Counted from the first letter of the stretch, positions 21,943 to 30,545 are shown. The stretch: DNA of 64,000 nucleotides from an uncultured Prevotella sp. (GCA_944320305.1 CALUGW010000003.1:45372-109371); one strand, 5' to 3'. Notes: generated by a model not told the origin, from the letters alone. Numbers and translations are program-made.

Positions 21943-22731
21943 ATGAAAGACATACTTGAGGAAATCGTGGCGTGGAAACGCCGCGAGGTGGAGCAGCTGA
22001 AGCGGGAGCAGCCCGAGGCCGGACTGCGCGCGCTGGTGGAGCGCACGTGCACCGGCCAGCCCCCGAGCATGAGCCTGGCGCTGCGCCGCTCGCCCACGGG
22101 AATAATAGCCGAGTTCAAGCGCAAGTCGCCCTCGAAAGGCTGGATCAGGGAGGACGGCCGGGCCGAGGACATTCCGGCGGACTACCAGAAGAACGGGGCG
22201 GCGGCCCTGAGCATACTCACCGACAACAGGTTCTTCGGCGGGGAGGACAGCTTTATAGCGGCGGCGAGACGGTCGGGGGTGACGCTGCCGGTGCTCTACA
22301 AGAACTTTGTCATTGACGAGTACCAGCTTTTCCGCGCCCGGCTCTGCGGCGCGTCGGCCGTGCTGCTCATAGCGGCGTGCCTCAGCAAGAGCCGGTGCGC
22401 CGCGCTGGCGCGCGCGGCGCACAGCCTGGGGCTGGAGGTGCTGCTCGAGATGCACAGCGAGCCTGAGCTTGAATACACCGCCGCCGGCCCCGATATGTGC
22501 GGCATCAACAACCGCAACCTCGGCACGTTCGTGACCGACACCGCCACGTCGTTCCGGCTGGGCAGACTGCTCCCGGCCGACAGCGTGAAGGTGAGCGAGA
22601 GCGGAATATCGTCGCCGGAAACCGTGAGGAGGCTGCGCTCGGCAGGCTTCAGCGGCTTTCTGATTGGCGAGCACTTCATGAAGGCCGACTCGCCTGGCAT
22701 GGAGCTTAACAAGTTTATAAGCGCGATATGA
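21943..22731 (+). CDS. trpC: Indole-3-glycerol phosphate synthase
   Basis: IAEFKRKSPSKG, LSILTD, GINNRNL and VSESGI motifs. Confidence 0.95.
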   Translation: MKDILEEIVAWKRREVEQLKREQPEAGLRALVERTCTGQPPSMSLALRRSPTGIIAEFKRKSPSKGWIREDGRAEDIPADYQKNGAAALSILTDNRFFGGEDSFIAAARRSGVTLPVLYKNFVIDEYQLFRARLCGASAVLLIAACLSKSRCAALARAAHSLGLEVLLEMHSEPELEYTAAGPDMCGINNRNLGTFVTDTATSFRLGRLLPADSVKVSESGISSPETVRRLRSAGFSGFLIGEHFMKADSPGMELNKFISAI

Positions 22732-23396
22732 TAATAAAGGTGTGCGGAATGAAATACGCCGACAACATCGGCGATGTTGCCGCGCTGGGTGCAGACATGG
22801 TGGGCATGGTGTTCTACAACAAGTCGCCGCGCTGTGTGGCGCAGCCGCCGGCTGGCGCCGGGCGCCCCCCCGGCACGGACGGCTGCCGCCTTGTGGGCGT
22901 GTTTGTCGACGCCTCGGTGCAGGAGATTATTGCCCGGGCGGCCGCCTTCAGGCTCGACGCGGTGCAGCTGCACGGCAGCGAGCCGCCTGTGATGCTGGAC
23001 AATCTGCGCCGCACGCTGTGCCCCGACATCTGCCCTGAGCTGAAGATAATAAAAGCCGTGGGCATAGGCTGCGCCGCCGACTTTGACAAATGCGCCGCCT
23101 ACGAGGGCAGCGCAGACTGCCTGCTCTTCGACACGCGGTGCGCGGGAGCAGGCGGCAGCGGCAGGCATTTCGACTGGAAGCTGCTCGACCGCTACACCGG
23201 CCGGCTACCGTTCATACTCAGCGGCGGCATAGGCCCGGGCGACGAGGAGGCCGTTGCGGCCCTGCGCCACCCCAAGCTGTGCGGCATCGACCTGAACTCG
23301 CGCTTCGAGACCGCGCCGGGCCTTAAGGACGTGAGCCTGCTGCGGCCGTTCATCGGGCGGCTGCGCAGCGCATGGCGGCAGCGCATGGATAATTGA
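22728..23396 (+). CDS. trpF: Phosphoribosylanthranilate isomerase
   Basis: IKVCG, VGVF, VQLHGSE, GGSG and DLNSRFE..PG motifs; ATGA overlap with trpC. Confidence 0.94.
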   Translation: MIIKVCGMKYADNIGDVAALGADMVGMVFYNKSPRCVAQPPAGAGRPPGTDGCRLVGVFVDASVQEIIARAAAFRLDAVQLHGSEPPVMLDNLRRTLCPDICPELKIIKAVGIGCAADFDKCAAYEGSADCLLFDTRCAGAGGSGRHFDWKLLDRYTGRLPFILSGGIGPGDEEAVAALRHPKLCGIDLNSRFETAPGLKDVSLLRPFIGRLRSAWRQRMDN

Positions 23397-23419
23397 CGAC
23401 AAGACAAAAACATCAGAAT

Positions 23420-24211
23420 ATGAACAAAATCAACGAACTGTTCAAGAGCGCAGGCGACAGAAAGCTGCTCTCGCTCTATTTCTGTGCCGGGTGCCCCACT
23501 GCCGAGGGCACTGCCGACACGCTCAGGGCCATGCAGAGGCGTGGCATCGACATGGTGGAGGTGGGCATTCCGTTCAGCGACCCCATGGCCGACGGGCCGG
23601 TGATACAGGACGCCGCCACGCGCGCGCTGAGAAACGGCATGACGCTGGGCCGCATATTCGCGCAGCTCAAGGCCGTGAAAGATGAGATAACAATGCCGCT
23701 CGTGCTCATGGGCTATCTCAACCCCATACTGCAGTACGGCATTGAGCCGTTCTGCCGCAGCTGCGTGGAGTGCGGGGTGTCGGGGGCTATCATACCCGAC
23801 CTGCCGTTCAAGGACTATATGGACGTGGTGAAGCCGGTGGCCGACCGCTACGACCTGAGGGTGATAATGCTGATAACCCCCGAGACAAGCGAGGAGCGCA
23901 TACGCTTTATCGACGAGCATACAGACGGGTTCATCTACATGGTGTCGTCGGCAGCCACCACCGGGGCGCAAAAGCTCTTCGACGCGCAGAAGCTCGACTA
24001 CTTCCGCCGCATAAATGCCATGGGGCTGCACAATCCCAGAATGATTGGCTTCGGAATATCCAACCGCCAGACTTTGGAAAGCTCGCAGGCCAATGCCGCG
24101 GGGGCGATTATCGGCAGCAAATTCGTGACTCTGCTGAACGAGAGCCACAATGCCGACGAGGCGCTTGACAAACTGTTCGAGGCTCTTGGCCTACAGGACG
24201 GAGACCGCTGA
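23420..24211 (+). CDS. trpA: Tryptophan synthase alpha chain
   Basis: EVGIPFSDPMADGPVIQ, LMGYLNP and GFGI motifs. Confidence 0.95.
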   Translation: MNKINELFKSAGDRKLLSLYFCAGCPTAEGTADTLRAMQRRGIDMVEVGIPFSDPMADGPVIQDAATRALRNGMTLGRIFAQLKAVKDEITMPLVLMGYLNPILQYGIEPFCRSCVECGVSGAIIPDLPFKDYMDVVKPVADRYDLRVIMLITPETSEERIRFIDEHTDGFIYMVSSAATTGAQKLFDAQKLDYFRRINAMGLHNPRMIGFGISNRQTLESSQANAAGAIIGSKFVTLLNESHNADEALDKLFEALGLQDGDR

Positions 24212-24253
24212 CGCCGCCTCTCTTTTTACCAGGAGAGACCATTGAGGAGCCGA

Positions 24254-24590
24254 AATTTTAACACTTCAAAATCAAGCGAAATAGAAGCGCGGGGGCGGTT
24301 TCGGGCATCTGAAACCACCGGAAAAGCACAACAATTTTGCAAAACGGCCTGTTTCGCATTGCGAAACAGGCCGTTTTGCATTGCGATATAGGCCATATTG
24401 CAAGCTGATATGCCCCTTTTCAGAGCCGGATTTTGACCATTTGGGGGCTGAAAAAGGCTGTTTCGAGGGCTGATTTCATTGCACAACCGGGCCAATTAGG
24501 CCAATAAGTCCAATCAAGCCAACCAGTTACGGTTGCACACTCATATTTCGCGTATTTGCGGCGAACGGCAAACGATTTTCAAATACGCGA
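24254..24590 (+). repeat. Dispersed repeat family A, full-length 337-bp copy
   Basis: Collinear with the reverse complement of 50961-51297 and with 60576-~60780. Contains a perfect palindrome with 21-bp arms at 24338-24380. Confidence 0.8.
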
Positions 24591-24687
24591 ATTTTCAGGG
24601 CTTTATTCATGGCGGAATTTAACTGTGGTAAATGCATGTTAAAGAGCCACAGGCGTCGCCGACGCGCGAGCCATGCATCGTCTTAAT

Positions 24688-24840
24688 AAATATCCACAAG
24701 CTGCCAAGTTGTGTGCTCCATAAAGGGCGTGTCTCGCTATCAGTCATTCCGCGCGCCGACGCGGAATGACAGTTGGCGAGACACGCCTTTATAGACGCCT
24801 TTATGGAGGACACAATTTGGCAAATTGCGGATATTCATTT
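24688..24840. repeat. Dispersed repeat family C, complete hairpin (MITE/REP-like)
   Basis: Imperfect long inverted arms (…GCCAAGTTGTGTGCTCCATAAAGGGCGTGTCTCGC / GCGAGACACGCC…TTATGGAGGACACAATTTGGC…) around an inner GTCATTCCGCG/CGCGGAATGAC stem. Confidence 0.75.
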
Positions 24841-24871
24841 GCATAATCCAAAACAAATAATTATCTTTGCA
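24838..24871 (+). promoter_or_regulatory. Promoter for the methyltransferase-nuclease cassette
   Basis: TTTG at 24838-24841, 20-nt spacer, TATCTTTGCA at 24862-24871. Confidence 0.7.
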
Positions 24872-25004
24872 GACGCACCCTGCAAATACCGGCGGCCAAC
24901 AATGCCGTGGCAGGAGGCAAGAACAAAAACAACAAAACGCAAACAGAAAGAAAGGAACAGACAAGAAACAGACATATCTTTTAATCACACATATTGAATA
25001 ACTA

Positions 25005-25252
25005 AGAAGCATTAGCTATTATTTCGCGTTCGGCAAAGTCTCGCAAACTAAAAAGAACCACATGAAATAATGCTAAAAGTTGTGGCGTACACAAACTCCA
25101 CAAGCACCGATATGGTTAATGCTCACGCTGAATAGCGTGGGCAACTTATCGTGCTTGTGGGGGCTATGCGAGACGCCCGCCGAACGGATAAGAAGCCCGC
25201 GCTTCTTTTATCCGGCTGTGATTGATAGTGGATGCTCGCAAACTATCAATCT
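25005..25252 (+). ncRNA. Putative structured cis-regulatory leader RNA upstream of the methyltransferase
   Basis: Nested complementary segments CGTTCGGC/GCCGAACG, GTCTCGCA/TGCGAGAC, CTCCACAAGCAC/GTGCTTGTGGGG and GCTCACGCT/AGCGTGGGC, plus two 3' hairpins. Folded by eye only. Confidence 0.6.
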
Positions 25253-25254
25253 TC

Positions 25255-26331
25255 ATGACTTATAAAAACCTACACGCAGCAAAACGCGCAAAGCAAGACG
25301 AGTTCTACACACAGCTCTCCGACATCGAGCGCGAGCTGCAACATTACTGGCCGCACTTCTGCGGCAAGACCGTGCTCTGCAACTGCGACGACCCTTATGA
25401 GAGCAACTTCTTCAAGTATTTCGCGCTCAATTTCAATATGCTTAGACTGCGTAAACTCATTTGCACCTGCTACAATGGCTCGCCCGTGCTGGGCAACGAG
25501 TTGCTGCTGCACTTCGACGGATTCGACACTGAGCCTCAAAAACAGGCATACAAGGTGGAGATAACGGAGGTGAAAGACGAAAACGGAGACGGTGCAGTCG
25601 ACCTTTCGGACGTGCGTTTGCTACTTCACAATGATAAAAATGTCCTCGCCACCTTACAAAGCGGCGATTTTCGCTCACAAGAATGTATCGAGTTGCTGAA
25701 AGAGGCAGACATTGTCGTGACCAATCCGCCGTTCTCTCTTTTCAGAGAATACATCGGACAGTTGATAGAATATGGCAAGAAATTTTTGATTATCGGCAAC
25801 CAAAATGTAATAACATATAAAGAAATTTTTCCATTAATGATGGAAAACAAGATATGGCTTGGATATAAATCAGGCGATATGGCATTCAGAGTTCCTGATG
25901 ATTATGGGCCGAGAAGTACAAGATATTGGGTAGACGAAACAGGACAAAAGTGGAGAAGCATGGGAAACATTTGCTGGTTTACTAATCTTGACCACAACAA
26001 ACGACATGAAATAATGGATTTAATTTGCCGATATTCTCCTGATGATTATCCCAAATACGACAACTATTATGCCATCGATGTAGGAAAAACCGCAAATATA
26101 CCTTATGATTACGATGGAATAATGGGAGTTCCTATTACATTTCTCGACAAGTATAATCCAGACCAATTTGAAATTGTCGGAACGACAGAAAGTCAAGGCA
26201 AAGGTTTTTCCAATGGCCTTTGGAAAGCAGAAAGCAAAGTGGCACAACCGCTAATCAACGGACACAAAGTTTACATACGCATTTTTATTAAACTTAAGAA
26301 ACTAAAGACCCCCAAAACAGTAACCACATGA
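25255..26331 (+). CDS. Adenine-specific DNA methyltransferase, EcoRI methylase family
   Basis: KQDEFYT, VLCNCDDP, SGDFRSQECIELLKEADIVVTNPPFSLFREY and MGVPITFLDKYNPDQFEI motifs characteristic of the family. Confidence 0.88.
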   Translation: MTYKNLHAAKRAKQDEFYTQLSDIERELQHYWPHFCGKTVLCNCDDPYESNFFKYFALNFNMLRLRKLICTCYNGSPVLGNELLLHFDGFDTEPQKQAYKVEITEVKDENGDGAVDLSDVRLLLHNDKNVLATLQSGDFRSQECIELLKEADIVVTNPPFSLFREYIGQLIEYGKKFLIIGNQNVITYKEIFPLMMENKIWLGYKSGDMAFRVPDDYGPRSTRYWVDETGQKWRSMGNICWFTNLDHNKRHEIMDLICRYSPDDYPKYDNYYAIDVGKTANIPYDYDGIMGVPITFLDKYNPDQFEIVGTTESQGKGFSNGLWKAESKVAQPLINGHKVYIRIFIKLKKLKTPKTVTT

Positions 26332-27452
26332 TGACCATCAAACAGATTGAAGTTTCCGTCGGCGAAGTGTGCGACGGCTACGTTAACAACGACGAGCAGG
26401 GAGTGCGCGGCTACGGCGGCAGGCTCGACATAAGGCCACCGTACCAGCGCGAGTTCATCTACGACGAAAAGGAGCAGAGGGCCGTCATCAACACCGTGCT
26501 GAACGGTTATCCGCTCAACGTGATGTACTGGGTGAGGCGGAGCGGCGACGCAGAATGCCCCTACGAGGTGATGGACGGCCAGCAGCGCACGCTCTCGCTG
26601 TGCCAGTATGTGGCGGGGAGGTTCGCCGTTGACTACAAGAACTTCGGCAACCTGACGCCCGACGTCAGGCGGCGCATTCTGGACTACCGCCTGACAGTCT
26701 ACGTCTGCGAGGGCGAGGAGTCTGAAAAATTAGAGTGGTTCCGCACGATAAACATCGCTGGCAAGCCGCTCAACGAGCAGGAGATACGCAACGCCGTATA
26801 CGCCGGGCCGTTTGTGAGCGACGCCAAGCGCCACTTCTCTAAGACCAACTGCGCCGCCAAGCGGCTCGGCGGCGACCTCGTGGGCGGATCGCCCATACGC
26901 CAGGACCTGCTGAAGAAAGCCCTGGAGTGGATGGCAGACCACGAGACGCGCCTCGGACACCGCCAGACGGCCGTGGGTTATATGGCCGACCACCAGCACG
27001 ACCCCAACGCCAACAACCTGTGGACATACTTCCAGACGGTGATAAACTGGGCGATAACAAACTTCGACCCGAGGCGGTTCAAGAAGATAATGAAAGGCGT
27101 TGACTGGGCCACCCTATACGACCGCTACGGCGGCGAGACGCTCGACACCGCCGCACTGGGCGCCCGCATCAGCGCTCTGATGCGCGACAGCGAGATTCAG
27201 CGCCCCACGGGCATCATCCCATACGCGCTGACCGGCGACGAGCGATGGCTCGACCTGCGCGCCTTTCCCGACGACATGAAACTGGCGGCGTGGGAGCGGC
27301 AGGGGCACATTTGCCCGCTGTGCGGGCGCGAGATGGACTTTGAGTTCATGGAGGGCGACCACATAACGCCGTGGCGCGAGGGCGGACGCACCGTGGCGGA
27401 GAACTGCCAGATGCTCTGCCGCGAGTGCAACAGGCGCAAAGGAGCTAAGTGA
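26328..27452 (+). CDS. DUF262 (GmrSD-like ParB/Srx fold) plus HNH endonuclease
   Basis: RPPYQRE, DGQQR and FRTINIAGKPLNEQE DUF262 motifs; C-terminal CPLC…DHITPW…GG…NCQMLCRECN HNH domain; ATGA overlap with the MTase. Confidence 0.85.
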   Translation: MMTIKQIEVSVGEVCDGYVNNDEQGVRGYGGRLDIRPPYQREFIYDEKEQRAVINTVLNGYPLNVMYWVRRSGDAECPYEVMDGQQRTLSLCQYVAGRFAVDYKNFGNLTPDVRRRILDYRLTVYVCEGEESEKLEWFRTINIAGKPLNEQEIRNAVYAGPFVSDAKRHFSKTNCAAKRLGGDLVGGSPIRQDLLKKALEWMADHETRLGHRQTAVGYMADHQHDPNANNLWTYFQTVINWAITNFDPRRFKKIMKGVDWATLYDRYGGETLDTAALGARISALMRDSEIQRPTGIIPYALTGDERWLDLRAFPDDMKLAAWERQGHICPLCGREMDFEFMEGDHITPWREGGRTVAENCQMLCRECNRRKGAK

Positions 27453-27480
27453 GCTAAGCTTATAAAATATTTAAGGCACG

Positions 27481-27520
27481 AAAAAGGCGGCGCGGAGAAG
27501 TTTCCGTGCCGCCTTTGTTG
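27481..27520. terminator. Bidirectional terminator between the nuclease and rny
   Basis: AAAGGCGGCGCGGA / TCCGTGCCGCCTTT stem with A-rich and T-rich flanks. Confidence 0.8.
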
Positions 27521-27550
27521 CGGTTATAGTCCATGGCTGTAGTGGCGCCG

Positions 27551-29086
27551 TCACTTGGCGTAAGCCACGCTGCGGGTCTCGCGGATGACGGTGATCTTCA
27601 CCTGTCCGGGATAGGTCATCTCGGTCTGGATCTTGTTGGCAATGTCGCCAGAGAGCGCCTCGGCGGCCTTGTCGTCCATCTTGTCGGCCCCGACAATGAC
27701 GCGAAGCTCGCGTCCGGCCTGTATGGCGTAGGTCTTGGTGACGCCGGGATAGCTCATGGCGATGGCCTCAAGGTCGTTGAGACGCTTGATGTAAGCCTCC
27801 ACAATCTCGCGGCGGGCGCCGGGACGGGCGCCGCTGATGGCGTCGCACACCTGCACAATCGGGGCGAGCAGCGTGTTCATCTCGCACTCGTCGTGGTGGG
27901 CGGCGATGGCGTTGCAGATGTCGGGCTTCTCCTTGTACTTCTCTGCTATCTTCGCCCCGTAGAGCGCGTGGGGCAGCTCGCTCTCCTCGTCGGGCACCTT
28001 GCCGATGTCGTGCAGAAGTCCGGCGCGCTTGGCCTTCTTGGGGTTCAGGCCCAGCTCAGAGGCCATGACGGCACAGAGATTGGCCGTCTCGCGGGCGTGC
28101 TGGAGCAGGTTCTGGCCGTAGGAGCTGCGATACTTCATCTTGCCGATGATGCGGATAAGCTCCGGGTGCAGGCCGTGGATGCCCAGGTCTATGGCAGTGC
28201 GCTTGCCGGTCTCTATCACCTCGTTGTCGAGCTGCTTCTTGACCTTCTGCACAACCTCCTCGATGCGGGCCGGATGTATGCGTCCGTCGGACACGAGCTG
28301 GTGCAGAGCCAGACGGCAGACCTCGCGGCGGATGGGGTCGAACGCGCTGATGACGATGGCCTCGGGGGTGTCGTCAACGACAATCTCCACCCCGGTGGCA
28401 GCCTCGAGGGCACGGATGTTGCGGCCCTCGCGGCCGATGATGCGGCCTTTCACCTCGTCGTTGTCAATGTGGAACACGCTCACGCTGTTCTCGATGGCGG
28501 TCTCGGTGGCCACACGCTGTATGGTCTGGATGACTATCTTGCGCGCCTGGGCGTTGGCGTTGAGCTTGGCCTCGTCCATAATCTCGTTGATGTAGCTCTG
28601 GGCGTCGGTCTTGGCCTCGTCCTTCATAGCCTCCACAAGGCGCTGCTTGGCCTCCTCGGCGCTGAGGCCCGAAAGCTCCTCGAGCTTCTCGCGCTCCTGC
28701 AGCTGCATTTTCTCAAGCTCGTCGGTGCGTATCTGGAGCAGCTTCTTCTCATTGTCGATGCGCACCTGCTGGTTGTCAAGGTCGTTCTTGCGACGGCCCA
28801 GTTCCTCCTGGCGCTGGTTGAGAGAAATCTCGCGCTGCTTGAGCTTGTTCTCGCTCTGCTGTATGTGCTGGTTGCGCACCTGCACCTCTTTCTCAAGCTC
28901 GCTCTTCTTGTTAAGGAACTTCTCCTTGACCTCAAGGAGCTTTTTCTCTTTCATTACGTCGGCCTCTTTTGCGGCGGCGTCAATCATCTCATTGTATTTT
29001 CCCTTTAAAATATATCGGAAAACGAGATAACCGCCCAGCCCTCCGACAACGAGAGCGGCCACGGCGATAATTATTGTTAGAATCAT
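27551..29086 (-). CDS. rny: Ribonuclease Y
   Basis: N-terminal TM helix, coiled coil, KH domain ([13 protein letters not shown]), HD motif (GLLHDIGK), [11 protein letters not shown]. Confidence 0.97.
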
Positions 29087-29116
29087 AAAGCTAAATTATA
29101 AAATTGTTAAATATTC

Positions 29117-29425
29117 TCATTTCTTTTCTCCTAAAGCATCTTCGATTTCGGCAGTCAGGCTCGTGAGAATATCATTATAAGGCGCGGTGTCGTTCTTTGA
29201 GCGCTCCTTCTGGTACTGGAGCGCAATGTCAATGAGCGTCATCAGCGCTATGGTGTGGTCGCCCTTACGGCCCTTGTATATCTGAGCGTAGACATTGTAG
29301 CGGTCCGTAATGAGCTTGGCTGCGGAGCGGTAGAACTCCTCGTCACTGCGGTCGATGAGCACTTCTATCTCCTCATCGTAGACATGCAGCCTGATATGTA
29401 ATTTTTCACTGTTCTGATTTGCCAT
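29117..29425 (-). CDS. zapA: Cell division protein ZapA
   Basis: EEFYRSAAKLIT…ALMTLIDIA ZapA-like pattern; conserved position upstream of rny. Confidence 0.8.
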   Translation of the reverse strand: MANQNSEKLHIRLHVYDEEIEVLIDRSDEEFYRSAAKLITDRYNVYAQIYKGRKGDHTIALMTLIDIALQYQKERSKNDTAPYNDILTSLTAEIEDALGEKK

Positions 29426-29436
29426 CAATCTCTGCC

Positions 29437-29733
29437 TTATTTCTGTTCCGACAAGATTGCTATGCACCTGTTGACATCCCGTATCAGCCCCGCGAGCCTG
29501 TCCTTGACGCGGTCTATGTCGCCGTCGGACACCTCTACCATCTTCATCATTTTCAGCGTGTCGTACTCGTATGACTTCTGCTTCAGCTGCTCGCGCAGTT
29601 CCTTAATCTCGCGCTCGCCGCTGTCAACCATGGCATACAGCTCCTCGTTCTCCTTTTTCAGCTGCCGGAGCTGAAGGATCATCTGCCGCACGCGGGTCTG
29701 GAACAATGCCAATGTCTGCTCGTCGAAAGTCAT
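29437..29733 (-). CDS. Coiled-coil protein (ZapB-like)
   Basis: Heptad pattern and C-terminal LIRDVNRCIAILS; lies upstream of zapA. Confidence 0.6.
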   Translation of the reverse strand: MTFDEQTLALFQTRVRQMILQLRQLKKENEELYAMVDSGEREIKELREQLKQKSYEYDTLKMMKMVEVSDGDIDRVKDRLAGLIRDVNRCIAILSEQK

Positions 29734-29816
29734 TGCCGACAACTTAACTTAACAATAAATGAAACCGATACGGAGCCTGCGGAACCCGCCTCGCGGGATG
29801 CCGGAAGCTGCGACTG

Positions 29817-30446
29817 TCACTTGCCGTCATCGTCTTTCGGGCGCGGCTCTTTCTTCGCGAGCATCACCACGGTGTAGACGAAGTTGGTGACCCAATGCTG
29901 GGAGAAGCCGAGGCGGCGCGAATACTCGCGCACGGCGACAACGGTCTTCATCACACCGGGTTCCTTGAAATTGTTCTTATTATAAATATTGTCAACCGTC
30001 TTCTCTGTCATTGTGTAAAGGGCCTTCTTGAAAATGCCCGGCAGGCGCAGCTTGAACTTCATCAGATTGCCCATGAGCATCATCAAATCCTGAGTGAATC
30101 CCTGAAACTGGATGAGGTAGACCTGCACGTCCTGCAGCTTGTGGCAGCGGCGGCGCACACTCTGGTCTATCTCCTTGAAAAAGTCATCCTCCAAAGAATA
30201 AATGTCCTTCAGCATCTTCTTGCAGCGCGACTTCTCGCCCACCCCAAGCCTGTTGTTTACCGTCGGGACATGAAGAGTGGTCTTGAACACGCGCAAGTCT
30301 GGAAGCATCGAGAGATTGGTGATACCAAGCTCTGAAGCGATAACAGCCTGAAAATAGACACGGATGAGGGTCATGAAGTCCTCCATGCCTCCTGTCTTCT
30401 CTGCCTCAGGCTCTTTGCGCCCAAATAGTTTTGATATTAAACTCAT
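29817..30446 (-). CDS. Conserved Bacteroidales hypothetical protein
   Basis: 209-aa ORF with host-like codon usage (MEDFMTLIRVYFQA…KLRLPGIFKK); upstream -7 box at 30546-30555. Confidence 0.7.
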   Translation of the reverse strand: MSLISKLFGRKEPEAEKTGGMEDFMTLIRVYFQAVIASELGITNLSMLPDLRVFKTTLHVPTVNNRLGVGEKSRCKKMLKDIYSLEDDFFKEIDQSVRRRCHKLQDVQVYLIQFQGFTQDLMMLMGNLMKFKLRLPGIFKKALYTMTEKTVDNIYNKNNFKEPGVMKTVVAVREYSRRLGFSQHWVTNFVYTVVMLAKKEPRPKDDDGK

Positions 30447-30545
30447 ACTTTTTAGTCTGTAGAATCACACGCGCACGGGGCTGCGAAAAAGCCGACAAAG
30501 CGCCGCAACACGTATTGACACCTGTGTCAAAATTTAATTATTGAG

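What the first reader, a model, noticed from the sequence alone, without database searches (positions are those of the whole stretch)
24838..27520. Top candidate: structured leader RNA + EcoRI-family MTase + DUF262-HNH nuclease cassette
A self-contained unit is inserted between trpA and rny: promoter, ~380-nt 5' UTR with a highly paired RNA, coupled MTase and DUF262-HNH genes (ATGA overlap), and a terminator. EcoRI-family MTases normally partner a PD-(D/E)XK endonuclease, while DUF262 plus HNH is the GmrSD-type modification-dependent architecture. Pairing the two, with no C-protein gene and an RNA element in its place, suggests a defence module controlled by RNA structure rather than a transcription factor. 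The nuclease could target foreign modifications, borrow specificity from the MTase, or sense NTPs through DUF262. The gene pair itself may already be in databases; the RNA-controlled arrangement is the inferred novelty.
Basis: partly seen in the sequence, partly recalled or inferred. Interest (0 to 1): 0.72.

Follow-up and report, generated by a model that had tools for sequence, protein, structure and literature searches.

The report
RNA switch leader for restriction-modification operons
A Prevotella restriction-modification gene pair is preceded by a roughly 250-base folded RNA leader from an apparently undescribed family; the same leader sits in front of many kinds of restriction-modification operons in gut and rumen Bacteroidales and looks built to switch their translation on and off.

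Summary
Window 24838-27520 contains a Bacteroidetes-type promoter, a ~380-nt leader, an EcoRI-family N6A methyltransferase gene, a DUF262-HNH nuclease gene overlapping it by ATGA, and a terminator hairpin.

The gene pair is not novel. PADLOC has full-length Type II MTase and REase models for both proteins. The pair occurs in at least 337 Bacteroidales species genomes and on plasmids of several phyla.

The leader is the real finding. Its 3' 250 nt (25005-25254) is present at 74 of 80 homologous loci; five others are cut off by contig ends and one carries a divergent variant. It matches no Rfam 15 family, and none of the conserved motif strings I searched appears in the held literature.

Covariation supports a pseudoknotted multi-helix fold. 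It also supports two mutually exclusive conformations. In one, the invariant 5' motif pairs with the segment just upstream of the start codon and leaves the start region open. In the other, that segment forms a hairpin next to the AUG (class B: including it).

The same leader also precedes Type I, IIG-like, III and other methyltransferase-containing operons. The most likely function is a modular cis-acting translational switch for R-M operons. The trigger is unknown.

The methyltransferases carry two shuffled hypervariable modules, while the nuclease stays about 80% identical.

The parts
24838..24869 (+). Bacteroidetes-type promoter: TTTG (-33), 20-nt spacer, TATCTTTG (-7)
   Evidence: Read from the sequence. 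The pattern occurs 8 times in the window against 0.34 expected. A TAnnTTTG box lies within 170 nt upstream of 114 of 120 related leaders, against 9% in shuffles. The transcription start itself is inferred.
24870..25004 (+). Window-specific, A-rich 5' part of the leader; not conserved
   Evidence: blastn homology to the closest loci starts near 24947, and profile homology starts at 25006. Other loci have a shorter stretch here, often with a small hairpin (GGGGAGAAAUCC type in 24 of 120).
25005..25254 (+). Conserved structured leader core (class A of the family)
   Evidence: nhmmer E 3e-39 for the window, and 74 of 80 related loci hit. Covariation. No Rfam match.
25007..25028 (+). Invariant 5' motif AAGCAUUAGCUAUUAUUUCGCG; 5' strand of closing helix P1
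   Evidence: Positions 3-24 of alignment A3 are invariant, apart from one variable position, in 83 sequences. Pairs with 25218-25236 in the MFE fold and in the RNAalifold consensus.
25028..25045 (+). 5' strands of helices P2 (25028-25034) and P3 (25038-25045)
   Evidence: Partners are 25179-25185 and 25167-25174. In the family, P2 is 94% paired with 5 of 10 pairs compensatory, and P3 is 99% paired with 6 of 8 compensatory.
25096..25162 (+). P6/P7 hairpin domain. The P7 3' arm (25134-25142) can instead pair with the P8 loop (25195-25203).
   Evidence: Window coordinates. The alternative loop-loop helix is 97% paired with 7 of 9 pairs compensatory. The competing P7 helix is 85% paired.
25167..25185 (+). 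3' strands of P3 and P2. In most family members the P3 3' strand lies in the loop of a GGGG/CCCC hairpin (P5), which makes a pseudoknot.
   Evidence: P5 is 99% paired with 3 of 5 pairs compensatory. In the window subclass the P5 hairpin is short and overlaps P6.
25186..25213 (+). P8 hairpin; its loop GCCCGCGCU is complementary to the P7 3' arm
25218..25236 (+). Switch segment GUGAUUGAUAGUGGAUGCU: 3' strand of P1, or 5' arm of the start-proximal hairpin Pf
   Evidence: P1 pairing. Pf pairing (25220-25229 with 25242-25251) is 89% paired in the family. The two folds of the window differ by 1.8 kcal/mol.
25242..25251 (+). 3' arm of hairpin Pf (ACUAUCAAUC), ending 3 nt before the AUG
25255..26331 (+). 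EcoRI-family N6-adenine DNA methyltransferase gene (358 aa)
   Evidence: Pfam PF13651, E 2.5e-151. PADLOC MTase_II PDLC03297, E 1.7e-132.
25723..25734 (+). NPPF catalytic motif of the methyltransferase (aa 157-160)
   Evidence: Translation. The block aa 141-160 is 87% conserved.
25867..25980 (+). Hypervariable module V1 of the methyltransferase (aa ~205-242)
   Evidence: 11-42% identity across 74 homologues; about 10 sequence types.
26155..26328 (+). Hypervariable module V2 of the methyltransferase (aa ~301-358)
   Evidence: 17-38% identity; about 25 types, shuffled independently of V1. Lies in the 36-38% GC half of the gene.
26328..27452 (+). DUF262 (ParB/Srx-like) plus HNH nuclease gene (374 aa); its start overlaps the MTase stop (ATGA)
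   Evidence: Pfam GmrSD_N E 8.4e-18 and HNH E 7.8e-14. PADLOC REase_II PDLC03418, E 2.4e-122, covering 1-371 of 372. The ATGA overlap is the commonest arrangement among 74 loci.
26574..26588 (+). DGQQR motif of the DUF262 domain (aa 83-87)
   Evidence: Translation. Invariant in alignment A5.
27357..27431 (+). HNH core (D344 H345 ... N359 ... N368, with flanking Cys pairs)
   Evidence: Pfam HNH on aa 329-373. These residues are invariant in A5.
27483..27516 (.). 15-bp GC-rich hairpin between the convergent nuclease and rny genes; likely a bidirectional terminator
   Evidence: Fold -33.6 kcal/mol, z -4.0. It was not listed by the consensus terminator scan; I attribute this to its short T-run.

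Best explanation
The cassette is a two-gene restriction-modification operon of a widespread, already catalogued kind: an EcoRI-family N6-adenine methyltransferase followed by a DUF262-HNH nuclease.

It is transcribed from its own Bacteroidetes-type promoter through a long leader. The last ~250 nt of that leader belong to an apparently undescribed family of structured RNAs found in Bacteroidales.

The RNA folds into a closed multi-helix body. Closing helix P1 joins the invariant 5' motif to the segment just upstream of the start codon. Nested long-range helices P2 and P3 lie inside it, together with a pseudoknot and a possible loop-loop contact.

The P1 3' strand has a second partner. In class A, which includes the window, it forms a hairpin ending 2-6 nt before the AUG. 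In class B the equivalent hairpin includes the AUG. Bacteroidetes mRNAs are generally held to need an unstructured A/U-rich start region rather than a Shine-Dalgarno sequence. On that basis the P1 fold should permit translation of the methyltransferase, and through ATGA coupling the nuclease. The local hairpin should block it.

The leader therefore acts as a cis-acting translational switch that sets or gates expression of the whole operon. It fills the role that C proteins or other regulators play elsewhere. It is a portable module: the same promoter-leader-start unit precedes Type I, IIG-like, III and other methyltransferase-containing operons, sometimes several per genome.

Shown: the family, its structure by covariation, selection on both alternative folds, and its gene associations.

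Inferred: that it is transcribed from the predicted promoter, that the switch controls translation, the direction of the switch (which fold is ON), and above all what flips it. The trigger could be a metabolite such as SAM or SAH, a host protein or RNA, or co-transcriptional folding kinetics.
For: Proteins.

Co-occurrence of the leader: 74 of 80 loci plus the window, each hit running 10-16 nt into the MTase ORF, and 0 hits in a 0.5-Mb control.

Structure, class A:
- 84.1% paired against 37-46% for slid controls.
- 36 pairs with compensatory change against 26.8 +/- 1.9 in shuffles.
- 383 double-change cells against 164 +/- 11, 0 of 500 shuffles reaching it.
- P2, P3, P5 and P23 are 94-99% paired.

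Structure, class B:
- P1-containing (proposed ON) fold: 94.3% paired against 34-49% slid; 96 double-change cells against 28 +/- 5.
- Hairpin-containing (proposed OFF) fold: 91.3% against 37-50%; 78 against 24 +/- 7.
- Alignment columns 37, 143 and 191 covary three ways, so both rival helices are maintained.

Cross-class compensation in P1: GCAU/AUGC and GCUAUUA/UGAUAGU in class A against GCGU/ACGC, UGCU/AGCA and UUCGG/CCGAA in class B.

Strand: invariant and frequent G-U pairs, for example U16-G352 in all 83 sequences, mean the fold works only on the sense strand.

Energetics: the window's unconstrained MFE (-100.7 kcal/mol) contains P1, P2, P3, P6, P7 and P8 and leaves 25237-25273 unpaired. 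The hairpin-forced fold is -98.9.

Promoter box upstream of 114 of 120 leaders.

Modularity.

Other phyla: the leader is absent, and one plasmid has a MerR regulator gene upstream.

Not in Rfam 15. The motif 12- and 14-mers I searched are not printed in any held paper.
Against: - There are no expression data: the transcription start, the transcript ends and the effect on translation are all inferred.
- Helices P1b and most of Pf are invariant, so the key competing pair rests mainly on conservation, on the cross-class comparison and on energetics, not on within-class covariation.
- Alignments were made with MAFFT and the helices were chosen by eye and by RNAalifold. No covariance-model alignment or R-scape test was run.
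- Related sequences can beat column shuffles for phylogenetic reasons, although the slid controls argue against that here.
- Class B carries a 10-bp hairpin followed by a U-run that looks like an intrinsic terminator. Part of the regulation, or a separate short RNA, could therefore be transcriptional, which the model does not cover.
- A switch acting on the whole operon does not by itself solve the 'methylase before nuclease' problem.
- No ligand or partner is identified.
Confidence: 0.62

Rival explanations
1. The leader is a static structured 5' UTR. It is a compact fold that protects a long untranslated leader from RNases or Rho and sets a fixed low translation level, with no regulated switching.
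For: The closed fold is the unconstrained MFE of the window leader. No ligand or partner was found. R-M operons generally need low, steady expression (general knowledge).
Against: Both members of two pairs of mutually exclusive helices are maintained by compensatory change: P7 against P23 in class A, and B2 against B5 in class B, the latter with three-way covariation. The start-proximal hairpin competes with P1 in both classes although their sequences differ. A pseudoknotted body of about 250 nt is more than protection would need.
Confidence: 0.17
2. The conserved RNA is a functional RNA in its own right. It could be a small RNA ending at an internal terminator, or an RNA subunit or guide used by the nuclease or methyltransferase, rather than a cis regulator.
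For: Class B contains a terminator-like hairpin with a U-run about 60 nt before the start codon. The 5' motif is invariant beyond what pairing alone requires. HNH nucleases with upstream structured RNAs exist, IscB with its omega RNA being the known case.
Against: The RNA precedes unrelated protein sets: Type I HsdM, Type III Mod, IIG-like fusions and a helicase-nuclease. Class A has no internal terminator. The element always abuts and overlaps the first start codon. There is no HEARO/omega-RNA match in Rfam, and the IscB and Cas9d NCBIfam hits are HNH-only and far below their cut-offs.
Confidence: 0.08
3. The conservation is at the DNA level. The element would be a recombination or cassette-exchange site, or a protein-bound operator, that lets R-M modules be swapped behind a common promoter.
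For: The same promoter-leader-start unit precedes many different operons, and even the first codons (AUGGCAAA) recur. The cassettes sit in different genomic contexts. The methyltransferase gene is a GC mosaic.
Against: There are compensatory changes in long-range helices up to about 230 nt apart and in a pseudoknot. G-U pairs are tolerated on the sense strand only. Orientation relative to the promoter and the gene is fixed. No recombinase gene is consistently adjacent. Modular spread by recombination is compatible with an RNA function.
Confidence: 0.05
4. It is an ordinary Type II system with nothing special upstream, and the leader similarity merely reflects recent horizontal transfer of the whole cassette.
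For: PADLOC classes both proteins as Type II. The closest loci share 80-86% identity over the leader.
Against: The leader persists where the methyltransferase has diverged to 34-45% identity. It also persists where the downstream genes are unrelated. Stems change sequence but keep pairing.
Confidence: 0.03

Closest known systems
Controller (C) protein and other protein-based regulation of Type II R-M operons (e.g. C.PvuII and C.AhdI circuits; methyltransferase autoregulation)
   Same: A dedicated regulatory module sits directly upstream of the R-M genes and travels with them. One homologous pair, on a Ligilactobacillus plasmid, has a MerR-family regulator gene in the position the leader occupies here.
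   Different: There is no regulator ORF, and no palindromic operator was noticed by eye (not formally scanned). The conserved element is a roughly 250-nt RNA structure acting, by inference, on translation initiation.
Riboswitches and other cis-acting leader RNA switches with translational expression platforms
   Same: It lies in the 5' UTR, has a covariation-supported multi-helix sensor body closed by a P1 helix, and has an alternative pairing that occludes the start region. It is associated with a functionally coherent gene set, and some genomes carry several copies.
   Different: No ligand is known. There is no match to any of the 4227 Rfam 15 families. It is larger than most riboswitch aptamers. 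The regulated genes are defence or epigenetic genes, not metabolic ones.
Antisense and small-RNA control of R-M systems (e.g. the antisense RNAs described for EcoRI; from memory)
   Same: Regulation of restriction-modification genes at the RNA level.
   Different: Those are short antisense transcripts from within the genes. This is a sense-strand structured leader (G-U asymmetry) shared across R-M types.
GmrSD / BrxU / SspE family (DUF262 NTPase domain plus a His-Me finger nuclease domain), Type IV modification-dependent enzymes
   Same: An N-terminal DUF262 domain with an invariant DGQQR motif and a C-terminal beta-beta-alpha-metal nuclease (family description from PMC4619093 and PMC12707154).
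   Different: The nuclease domain is a classical HNH (PF01844), not DUF1524. The gene is almost always coupled to a methyltransferase. PADLOC's best model is a full-length Type II REase (E 2.4e-122), against E 0.006 for the Type IV model.
Type I and Type IIG R-M systems with exchangeable target-recognition domains
   Same: The methyltransferases here carry two hypervariable modules that reassort independently, next to a conserved nuclease partner. This is the pattern seen where the methylase or specificity component dictates the target for restriction.
   Different: There is no separate S subunit and no fused nuclease-methylase. Whether V1 and V2 determine specificity, and whether the nuclease depends on the methyltransferase, is untested.
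IscB omega RNA (HEARO motif), a structured RNA encoded upstream of an HNH-containing nuclease
   Same: A large structured RNA lies upstream of an operon that encodes an HNH nuclease.
   Different: No Rfam HEARO hit. The IscB NCBIfam score is 24 bits against a 175-bit cut-off and covers the HNH domain only. No RuvC domain was reported by Pfam. The RNA also precedes operons without any HNH protein.

Membership tests
Type II restriction-modification system (separate R and M genes) | Adjacent, separately encoded DNA methyltransferase and endonuclease genes | tested here: met
   ORFs 25255-26331 and 26328-27452. Full-length PADLOC MTase_II and REase_II models. The pair is conserved in 78 of 80 loci.
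Type II restriction-modification system (separate R and M genes) | Methyltransferase with catalytic motif IV (NPPY/F) of N6-adenine enzymes | tested here: met
   TNPPF at aa 156-160, in a conserved block. Pfam PF13651.
Type II restriction-modification system (separate R and M genes) | Endonuclease that on its own recognises the same sequence as the methyltransferase and cuts it when unmethylated | tested here: inconclusive
The nuclease is uniformly about 80% conserved while the methyltransferase's V1 and V2 modules occur in about 10 and 25 reassorting types uncorrelated with nuclease divergence. That is hard to reconcile with independent matching specificities, unless V1 and V2 are not specificity determinants.
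GmrSD-type Type IV (modification-dependent) nucleases | N-terminal DUF262 domain with the DGQQR motif | tested here: met
   Pfam GmrSD_N, E 8.4e-18. DGQQR at aa 83-87 is invariant.
GmrSD-type Type IV (modification-dependent) nucleases | C-terminal DUF1524 His-Me finger domain | tested here: not met
   Pfam finds HNH (PF01844) and HNH_5, not DUF1524.
GmrSD-type Type IV (modification-dependent) nucleases | Stand-alone gene with no cognate methyltransferase; cleaves modified DNA | tested here: not met
   The genomic part was tested: a methyltransferase lies directly upstream in 78 of 80 and 53 of 55 cases. Dependence of cleavage on modification cannot be tested here.
C-protein-controlled R-M operon | Small helix-turn-helix controller gene upstream of or within the operon | tested here: not met
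   There is no conserved ORF in 24838-25254. Indels of 1-2 nt are common in the leader alignment, and no regulator gene is adjacent.
Riboswitch (metabolite-sensing leader RNA) | Conserved structured domain in a 5' UTR supported by covariation | tested here: met
   Promoter upstream in 114 of 120 leaders.
Riboswitch (metabolite-sensing leader RNA) | Expression platform with mutually exclusive pairings affecting a terminator or the start region | tested here: met
   P1 against Pf in class A, and P1c against the AUG-containing hairpin in class B. The effect on expression is inferred.
Riboswitch (metabolite-sensing leader RNA) | Direct, specific binding of a small-molecule ligand | not testable with these tools
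   Needs in-line probing, ITC or similar with candidate ligands.
Any Rfam 15 RNA family | Covariance-model match | tested here: not met
   No hit on any leader at E <= 1 in the window region or at E <= 0.1 in seven other loci. The only hits were Thr_leader matches on hairpins away from the leaders (in the window, the trpA-terminator hairpin), a sub-threshold neisseria_FSE match inside the nuclease gene, and a tRNA.
IscB / omega-RNA (HEARO) system | RuvC plus HNH IscB protein with an adjacent HEARO RNA | tested here: not met
   NCBIfam guided_IscB scores 24 bits against a 175-bit cut-off and covers the HNH domain only. No HEARO hit.

The most novel reading that the evidence does not exclude
The leader is a new class of sensor RNA that responds to one common cellular signal and thereby gates many or all restriction-modification systems of a Bacteroidales cell together, as an RNA-controlled 'restriction regulon'. 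The signal might be SAM or SAH availability, or a signal of infection, DNA damage or DNA uptake.

In addition, the DUF262-HNH nuclease of this pair may have no sequence specificity of its own and may be directed by the methyltransferase, whose two reassorting modules set the target.
Probability: 0.3. Interest if true: 0.9.

Novelty: new variant of a known kind. Interest (0 to 1): 0.78.

Why it matters
R-M systems must be expressed carefully, because too much nuclease or too little methylase kills the host. The known solutions are proteins (C proteins, autoregulating methylases) or antisense RNAs.

A conserved, pseudoknotted, bistable leader RNA shared by Type I, II, IIG-like and III operons would be a new regulatory principle for defence genes. 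It occurs in one of the most abundant bacterial orders of the human gut and the rumen.

- It gives a concrete, testable handle on how Bacteroidales coordinate restriction. That bears on gene transfer, phage susceptibility and the poor genetic tractability of Prevotella and Segatella.
- It adds a sizeable, widespread RNA class with an unknown trigger to the list of orphan structured RNAs.
- It offers a portable expression module.
- The shuffled methyltransferase modules beside a constant DUF262-HNH nuclease suggest that a very common 'Type II' pair may work by methylase-directed restriction.

Tried and rejected
- **Rfam.** The window region and seven other loci gave nothing on the leaders.
- **Literature.** Searches for DUF262-HNH Type II enzymes, for RNA motifs near R-M genes and for the motif strings themselves found nothing relevant. 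One 2026 preprint on non-coding element mining could not be opened.
- **Naming the prototype enzyme.** Cluster look-ups returned no names. RefSeq plasmid records say only 'DUF262 domain-containing protein'.
- **Nuclease structure.** PDB sequence and profile searches hit only HNH domains, and the methyltransferase hit nothing. AlphaFold2 with the available shallow alignment (all members at least 79% identical) gave mean pLDDT 45. I therefore ran no fold search and draw nothing from the model.
- **Empty site.** None of the 80 nuclease loci has trpA or rny nearby. None of 49 Prevotella trpA loci has rny or the cassette within 6 kb. So neither an insertion event nor its exact borders could be shown.
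- **Phage origin.** Three motif hits in IMG/VR were chance matches.
- **Leader in other phyla.** Upstream regions of four plasmid-borne homologous pairs, plus the region upstream of the MerR gene on pLa3_1, show no related motif.
- **Small ORF or leader peptide.** The 61-aa TTG ORF at 25080-25265 is not conserved, and frame-breaking indels are common.
- **Covariance model.** I did not build one. At about 270-300 positions the full-length model would very likely exceed the calibration limit, so I used MAFFT alignments, RNAalifold, explicit pair counts and an nhmmer profile instead.
- **Forced-fold energies across the family.** The comparison is biased by column misalignment of P3 in the window's subclass. 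Only the window's own numbers are used.

Full report
**1. What is at the coordinates**

Window 22000-30500 reads trpC, trpF, trpA (23393-24211, +), a 1-kb non-coding stretch, two + strand ORFs, and then rny on the - strand (27551-29086).

The first ORF is listed from a TTG at 25222. Its conserved start is the ATG at 25255. It is a full-length EcoRI_methylase (PF13651, E 2.5e-151, profile 1-345 of 345).

The second ORF (26328-27452) starts inside the first one's stop codon (ATGA). It carries GmrSD_N/DUF262 (E 8.4e-18) and HNH (E 7.8e-14).

A match to the Bacteroidetes promoter consensus, TTTG-N20-TATCTTTG, lies at 24838-24869. There are eight such sites in the window against 0.34 expected. That gives a leader of about 380 nt.

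Downstream, a 15-bp GC-rich hairpin (27483-27516, -33.6 kcal/mol, z -4.0) separates the nuclease gene from the convergent rny. The leader folds much better than shuffles do (z -5.9).

**2. The gene pair is common and already catalogued**

PADLOC-DB has full-length models for both proteins: MTase_II PDLC03297 (E 1.7e-132) and REase_II PDLC03418 (E 2.4e-122, positions 1-371 of 372). Its Type IV model scores only E 0.006.

- The nuclease has more than 8000 database relatives at E <= 1e-10. The best 120 clusters are 79-98% identical and none carries a name.
- A scan of one genome per species found 337 loci. The best 80 are almost all labelled Prevotella, Bacteroidaceae or other Bacteroidales, many of them rumen MAGs.
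- In 78 of the 80 loci an EcoRI-family methyltransferase lies directly upstream; the other two show no full-length match (contigs cut short).
- The ATGA overlap is the commonest junction.
- The same M-then-R pair sits on plasmids of Chryseobacterium, Mammaliicoccus, Aeromonas, Variovorax, Sulfitobacter, Gordonia, Ligilactobacillus and others at 38-50% identity. RefSeq annotates it as 'adenine-specific methyltransferase EcoRI family protein' plus 'DUF262 domain-containing protein'.

The nuclease resembles GmrSD, BrxU and SspE only in its DUF262 domain. Those families are described in PMC4619093 and PMC12707154. Here the nuclease domain is a classical HNH, and the gene is tied to a methyltransferase. 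I could not name the characterised prototype behind the PADLOC model.

**3. The leader is conserved wherever the pair occurs in Bacteroidales**

blastn found 80-86% identity over window 24947-25251 in four loci, and a conserved core in about 35 more.

Alignments of the regions upstream of the methyltransferase start showed two related classes.

- Class A (the window's class) ends in a hairpin GAUUGAUAGU...ACUAUCAAUC a few bases before the AUG.
- Class B ends in AUACGC...GCGUAUGG, where the hairpin includes the AUG.
- Both classes begin with the motif AAGCRUUNGCURUUAUUYSG.

nhmmer profiles built from the two alignments hit 74 of the 80 loci plus the window (E 1e-7 to 4e-78). Each hit runs 10-16 nt into the methyltransferase ORF. 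Five of the six misses are contigs that end before the leader, and the sixth (L056) has a visibly related divergent variant. There were no hits in 0.5 Mb of control Prevotella DNA.

A TAnnTTTG promoter box lies within 170 nt upstream of 114 of 120 leaders (median 65 nt), against 9% in shuffles.

Only the 3' 250 nt of the window's leader (25005-25254) belongs to the family. The A-rich stretch 24870-25004 is specific to the window.

**4. It is an RNA structure, and a bistable one**

RNAalifold on each class predicted a long-range closing helix between the 5' motif and the segment just upstream of the start.

The two classes compensate each other in this helix. Class A has GCAU/AUGC and GCUAUUA/UGAUAGU. 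Class B has GCGU/ACGC, UGCU/AGCA and UUCGG/CCGAA.

*Class A, 83 leaders (alignment A3).* I placed the helices by eye and then counted pairs.

| Helix | Cells paired | Pairs with compensatory change |
|---|---|---|
| P2 (10 bp) | 94% | 5 |
| P3 (8 bp) | 99% | 6 |
| P5 | 99% | 3 |
| P23 (9 bp) | 97% | 7 |

- P5 is a hairpin whose loop contains the P3 3' strand, so P3 and P5 form a pseudoknot.
- P23 joins the 3' arm of hairpin P7 to the loop of hairpin P8.
- Whole structure: 84.1% of cells paired against 37-46% when partners are slid by 1-3 columns.
- 36 pairs show compensatory change against 26.8 +/- 1.9 in shuffles.
- 383 double-change cells against 164 +/- 11, with 0 of 500 shuffles reaching the observed value.

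P23 excludes P7, which is itself 85% paired and covaries at the shared column. Hairpin Pf excludes P1.

*Class B, 37 leaders (A4).* Both complete alternative folds are supported.

- The fold with P1 is 94.3% paired against 34-49% slid, with 96 double-change cells against 28 +/- 5.
- The fold with the long central hairpin and the AUG-containing hairpin is 91.3% paired against 37-50% slid, with 78 against 24 +/- 7.
- Alignment columns 37, 143 and 191 covary three ways. Selection therefore maintains both rival helices, which is the signature of a switch.

Invariant and frequent G-U pairs show that the fold exists only on the sense strand.

In the window, the unconstrained MFE (-100.7 kcal/mol) contains these helices and leaves 25237-25273, including the AUG, unpaired:

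- P1: 25008-25027 with 25218-25236
- P2: 25028-25034 with 25179-25185
- P3: 25038-25045 with 25167-25174
- P6, P7 and P8

Forcing Pf (25220-25229 with 25242-25251) costs only 1.8 kcal/mol.

Frame-breaking indels throughout the alignment argue against a coding explanation.

**5. The leader is a portable module for R-M operons in general**

- 78 hits have an EcoRI-family methyltransferase starting 220-350 nt downstream (one at 82 nt), at identities down to 34%.
- Of the 55 with enough sequence downstream, 53 are followed by the DUF262-HNH gene.
- By rough calculation about 10 hits are chance matches in unrelated phyla.
- About 20 further hits are unmistakable leaders in front of other genes.

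The other operons behind the leader are:

| Locus | Genes behind the leader |
|---|---|
| L088 | Type I HsdM |
| L114 (Bacteroides rodentium) | Type III Mod plus Res |
| L113, L186 | a Type II methyltransferase followed by a 1058-1305-aa ORF; in L113 it has ResIII and Eco57I domains |
| L137 | HSDR_N-N6_Mtase protein plus an S subunit |
| L154 | HKD-Snf2 helicase (DrmD-like) plus an MmeI-like methyltransferase |
| L146 | PADLOC candidate PDC-S11 plus an EcoRI-family methyltransferase |
| L151 | Eco57I-type methyltransferase |
| L086, L125 | about 770-aa proteins, no Pfam or PADLOC hit, each with a central NPPF motif |
| L095, L164, L174 | about 830-aa proteins, no Pfam or PADLOC hit, each with a central NPPY motif |

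Nearly every operon examined thus contains an amino-methyltransferase. For L126 only the first ORF, an HSDR_N protein, was examined.

- The final hairpin, and even the first codons (AUGGCAAA), travel with the leader.
- Several MAGs carry two or more copies: UBA4332, RUG14378, RUG12352, RUG12181 and Sheep_1_mag_34.
- No genuine copy was found in 2.9 million viral contigs.
- The window has one copy.
- Plasmid-borne pairs outside Bacteroidales have no such leader. Ligilactobacillus pLa3_1 has a MerR-family regulator gene directly upstream instead.

**6. How it most likely works**

Shown: a promoter-proximal, sense-strand RNA of about 250 nt whose two conformations are both under selection, and which differs between them in whether the sequence abutting the start codon is free.

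Inferred from what is generally held about Bacteroidetes translation (initiation depends on an unstructured A/U-rich start region rather than a Shine-Dalgarno sequence): the P1 fold allows translation, and the local hairpin blocks it. Through ATGA coupling the nuclease would follow the methyltransferase.

What flips the switch is unknown. The association with many non-homologous R-M proteins argues against autoregulation by any one of them. It argues for a common input such as:

- a metabolite shared by all these systems; SAM or SAH is the obvious guess, since every operon encodes a SAM-dependent methyltransferase;
- a host protein or RNA that recognises the invariant 5' motif;
- co-transcriptional folding that gives each new mRNA a limited translation window.

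Class B also contains a 10-bp hairpin followed by a U-run (99.5% paired). This could add transcriptional attenuation or release a short RNA, and the model does not resolve it.

**7. A second, protein-level oddity**

Across 75 pairs the nuclease is uniformly about 80% identical. The methyltransferase has a conserved core and two hypervariable modules:

- V1, aa ~205-242, about 10 types;
- V2, aa ~301 to the end, about 25 types.

The two modules reassort independently (Spearman 0.12). They are uncorrelated with nuclease divergence (-0.09 and 0.12), whereas the methyltransferase core tracks the nuclease (0.47).

In the window the 3' half of the methyltransferase gene is 36-38% GC, against 58-69% for the nuclease gene and about 60-65% for the host. 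That fits a recent module exchange.

If V1 and V2 set target specificity, a constant nuclease cannot have a matching specificity of its own. It would have to be directed by the methyltransferase. This is an inference only. V1 and V2 could instead be neutral surface insertions.

**8. Comparison with what is known, and novelty**

The proteins are a new member of a catalogued Type II-like pair.

The leader works like a riboswitch or leader switch with a translational expression platform. However, it matches none of the 4227 Rfam 15 families. The main text of the 224-motif survey (PMC5737381) mentions no R-M-associated motif. None of its conserved 12- and 14-mers that I searched appears in any held paper.

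As far as I know, regulation of R-M operons by a structured sense-strand leader has not been described. The known modes are C proteins, methylase autoregulation and antisense RNAs. The literature tool covers only open-access text, so prior description elsewhere cannot be excluded.

**9. Limits**

- There are no expression or probing data.
- Alignments are MAFFT-based with hand-placed helices. No covariance model or R-scape test was run.
- P1b and most of Pf are invariant within each class.
- The nuclease model from AlphaFold2 was unusable (pLDDT 45).
- No empty site was found, so insertion between trpA and rny is not demonstrated.

**Verdict.** The significant finding is a widespread, apparently undescribed, bistable leader RNA for R-M operons.

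Noticed in passing
window 24685-24839: A 155-nt nested palindromic element: 42-nt arms at 86% complementarity enclosing 31-nt arms at 87%. It ends exactly where the promoter's -33 TTTG begins. It could be a MITE- or REP-like element or a strong bidirectional terminator insulating the cassette from trpA.
   Followed up: partly
window 24338-24380: A perfect 21-bp inverted repeat downstream of trpA, probably its terminator. It produced the spurious sub-threshold Rfam 'Thr_leader' hit. A related repeat unit occurs in L001, L209 and L213.
   Followed up: partly
window 25700-26330: The 3' half of the methyltransferase gene is 36-38% GC, against about 50% for its 5' half and 58-69% for the nuclease gene. 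This mosaic suggests a recent exchange of the region carrying the hypervariable modules V1 and V2.
   Followed up: partly
L086:3225-5534, L125:2946-5270(-), L164:437-2947, L174:951-3416, L095:4968-7547: Two families of large proteins (about 770 aa and about 830 aa) encoded directly behind the leader. L086, L125, L164 and L174 have no Pfam or PADLOC hit; L095 has no Pfam hit and was not scanned with PADLOC. All five have a central NPPF or NPPY motif. They are possibly undescribed fused restriction-methylase enzymes.
   Followed up: partly
L146:5797-7913: The leader precedes PADLOC 'phage defence candidate' PDC-S11 (DUF4268), followed by an EcoRI-family methyltransferase. This links the uncharacterised candidate to a methyltransferase partner.
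   Followed up: no
L017/L018 (UBA4332), L027/L029 (RUG14378), L120/L135 (RUG12352), L138/L145 (RUG12181), L013/L133 (Sheep_1_mag_34): Single MAGs carry two or more leader-headed operons, in some cases two copies of the same MTase/DUF262-HNH pair with different methyltransferase variable modules.
   Followed up: partly
L075:2976-2978: At the position of the methyltransferase start codon this locus reads ATA instead of ATG, within an otherwise intact leader and ORF. This may be a sequencing error, a non-canonical start or an inactivated copy.
   Followed up: no
L081:322-795 (Ligilactobacillus agilis pLa3_1): A MerR-family regulator gene ends 7 nt before the homologous methyltransferase gene. It is a candidate protein regulator of the same pair in Firmicutes.
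   Followed up: no
between promoter and leader motif in L086, L088, L124, L142, L164, L174 and others: A small conserved 5' hairpin lies between the predicted transcription start and the leader core. It is absent from the window. The type uucGGGGAGAAAUCCgga occurs in 24 of 120 leaders, and a second type, CCUCAGCGGAGG, in 16 of 120.
   Followed up: partly
class B leaders, e.g. L023:2624-2867, alignment A4 columns 150-190: A 10-bp hairpin followed by UUUUUUG, 99.5% paired with six compensatory pairs. It looks like an intrinsic terminator inside the leader, about 60 nt before the start codon.
   Followed up: partly
window 27533-29008 (+): The 491-aa ORF opposite rny is a shadow ORF of the high-GC rny gene, not a gene.
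   Followed up: no
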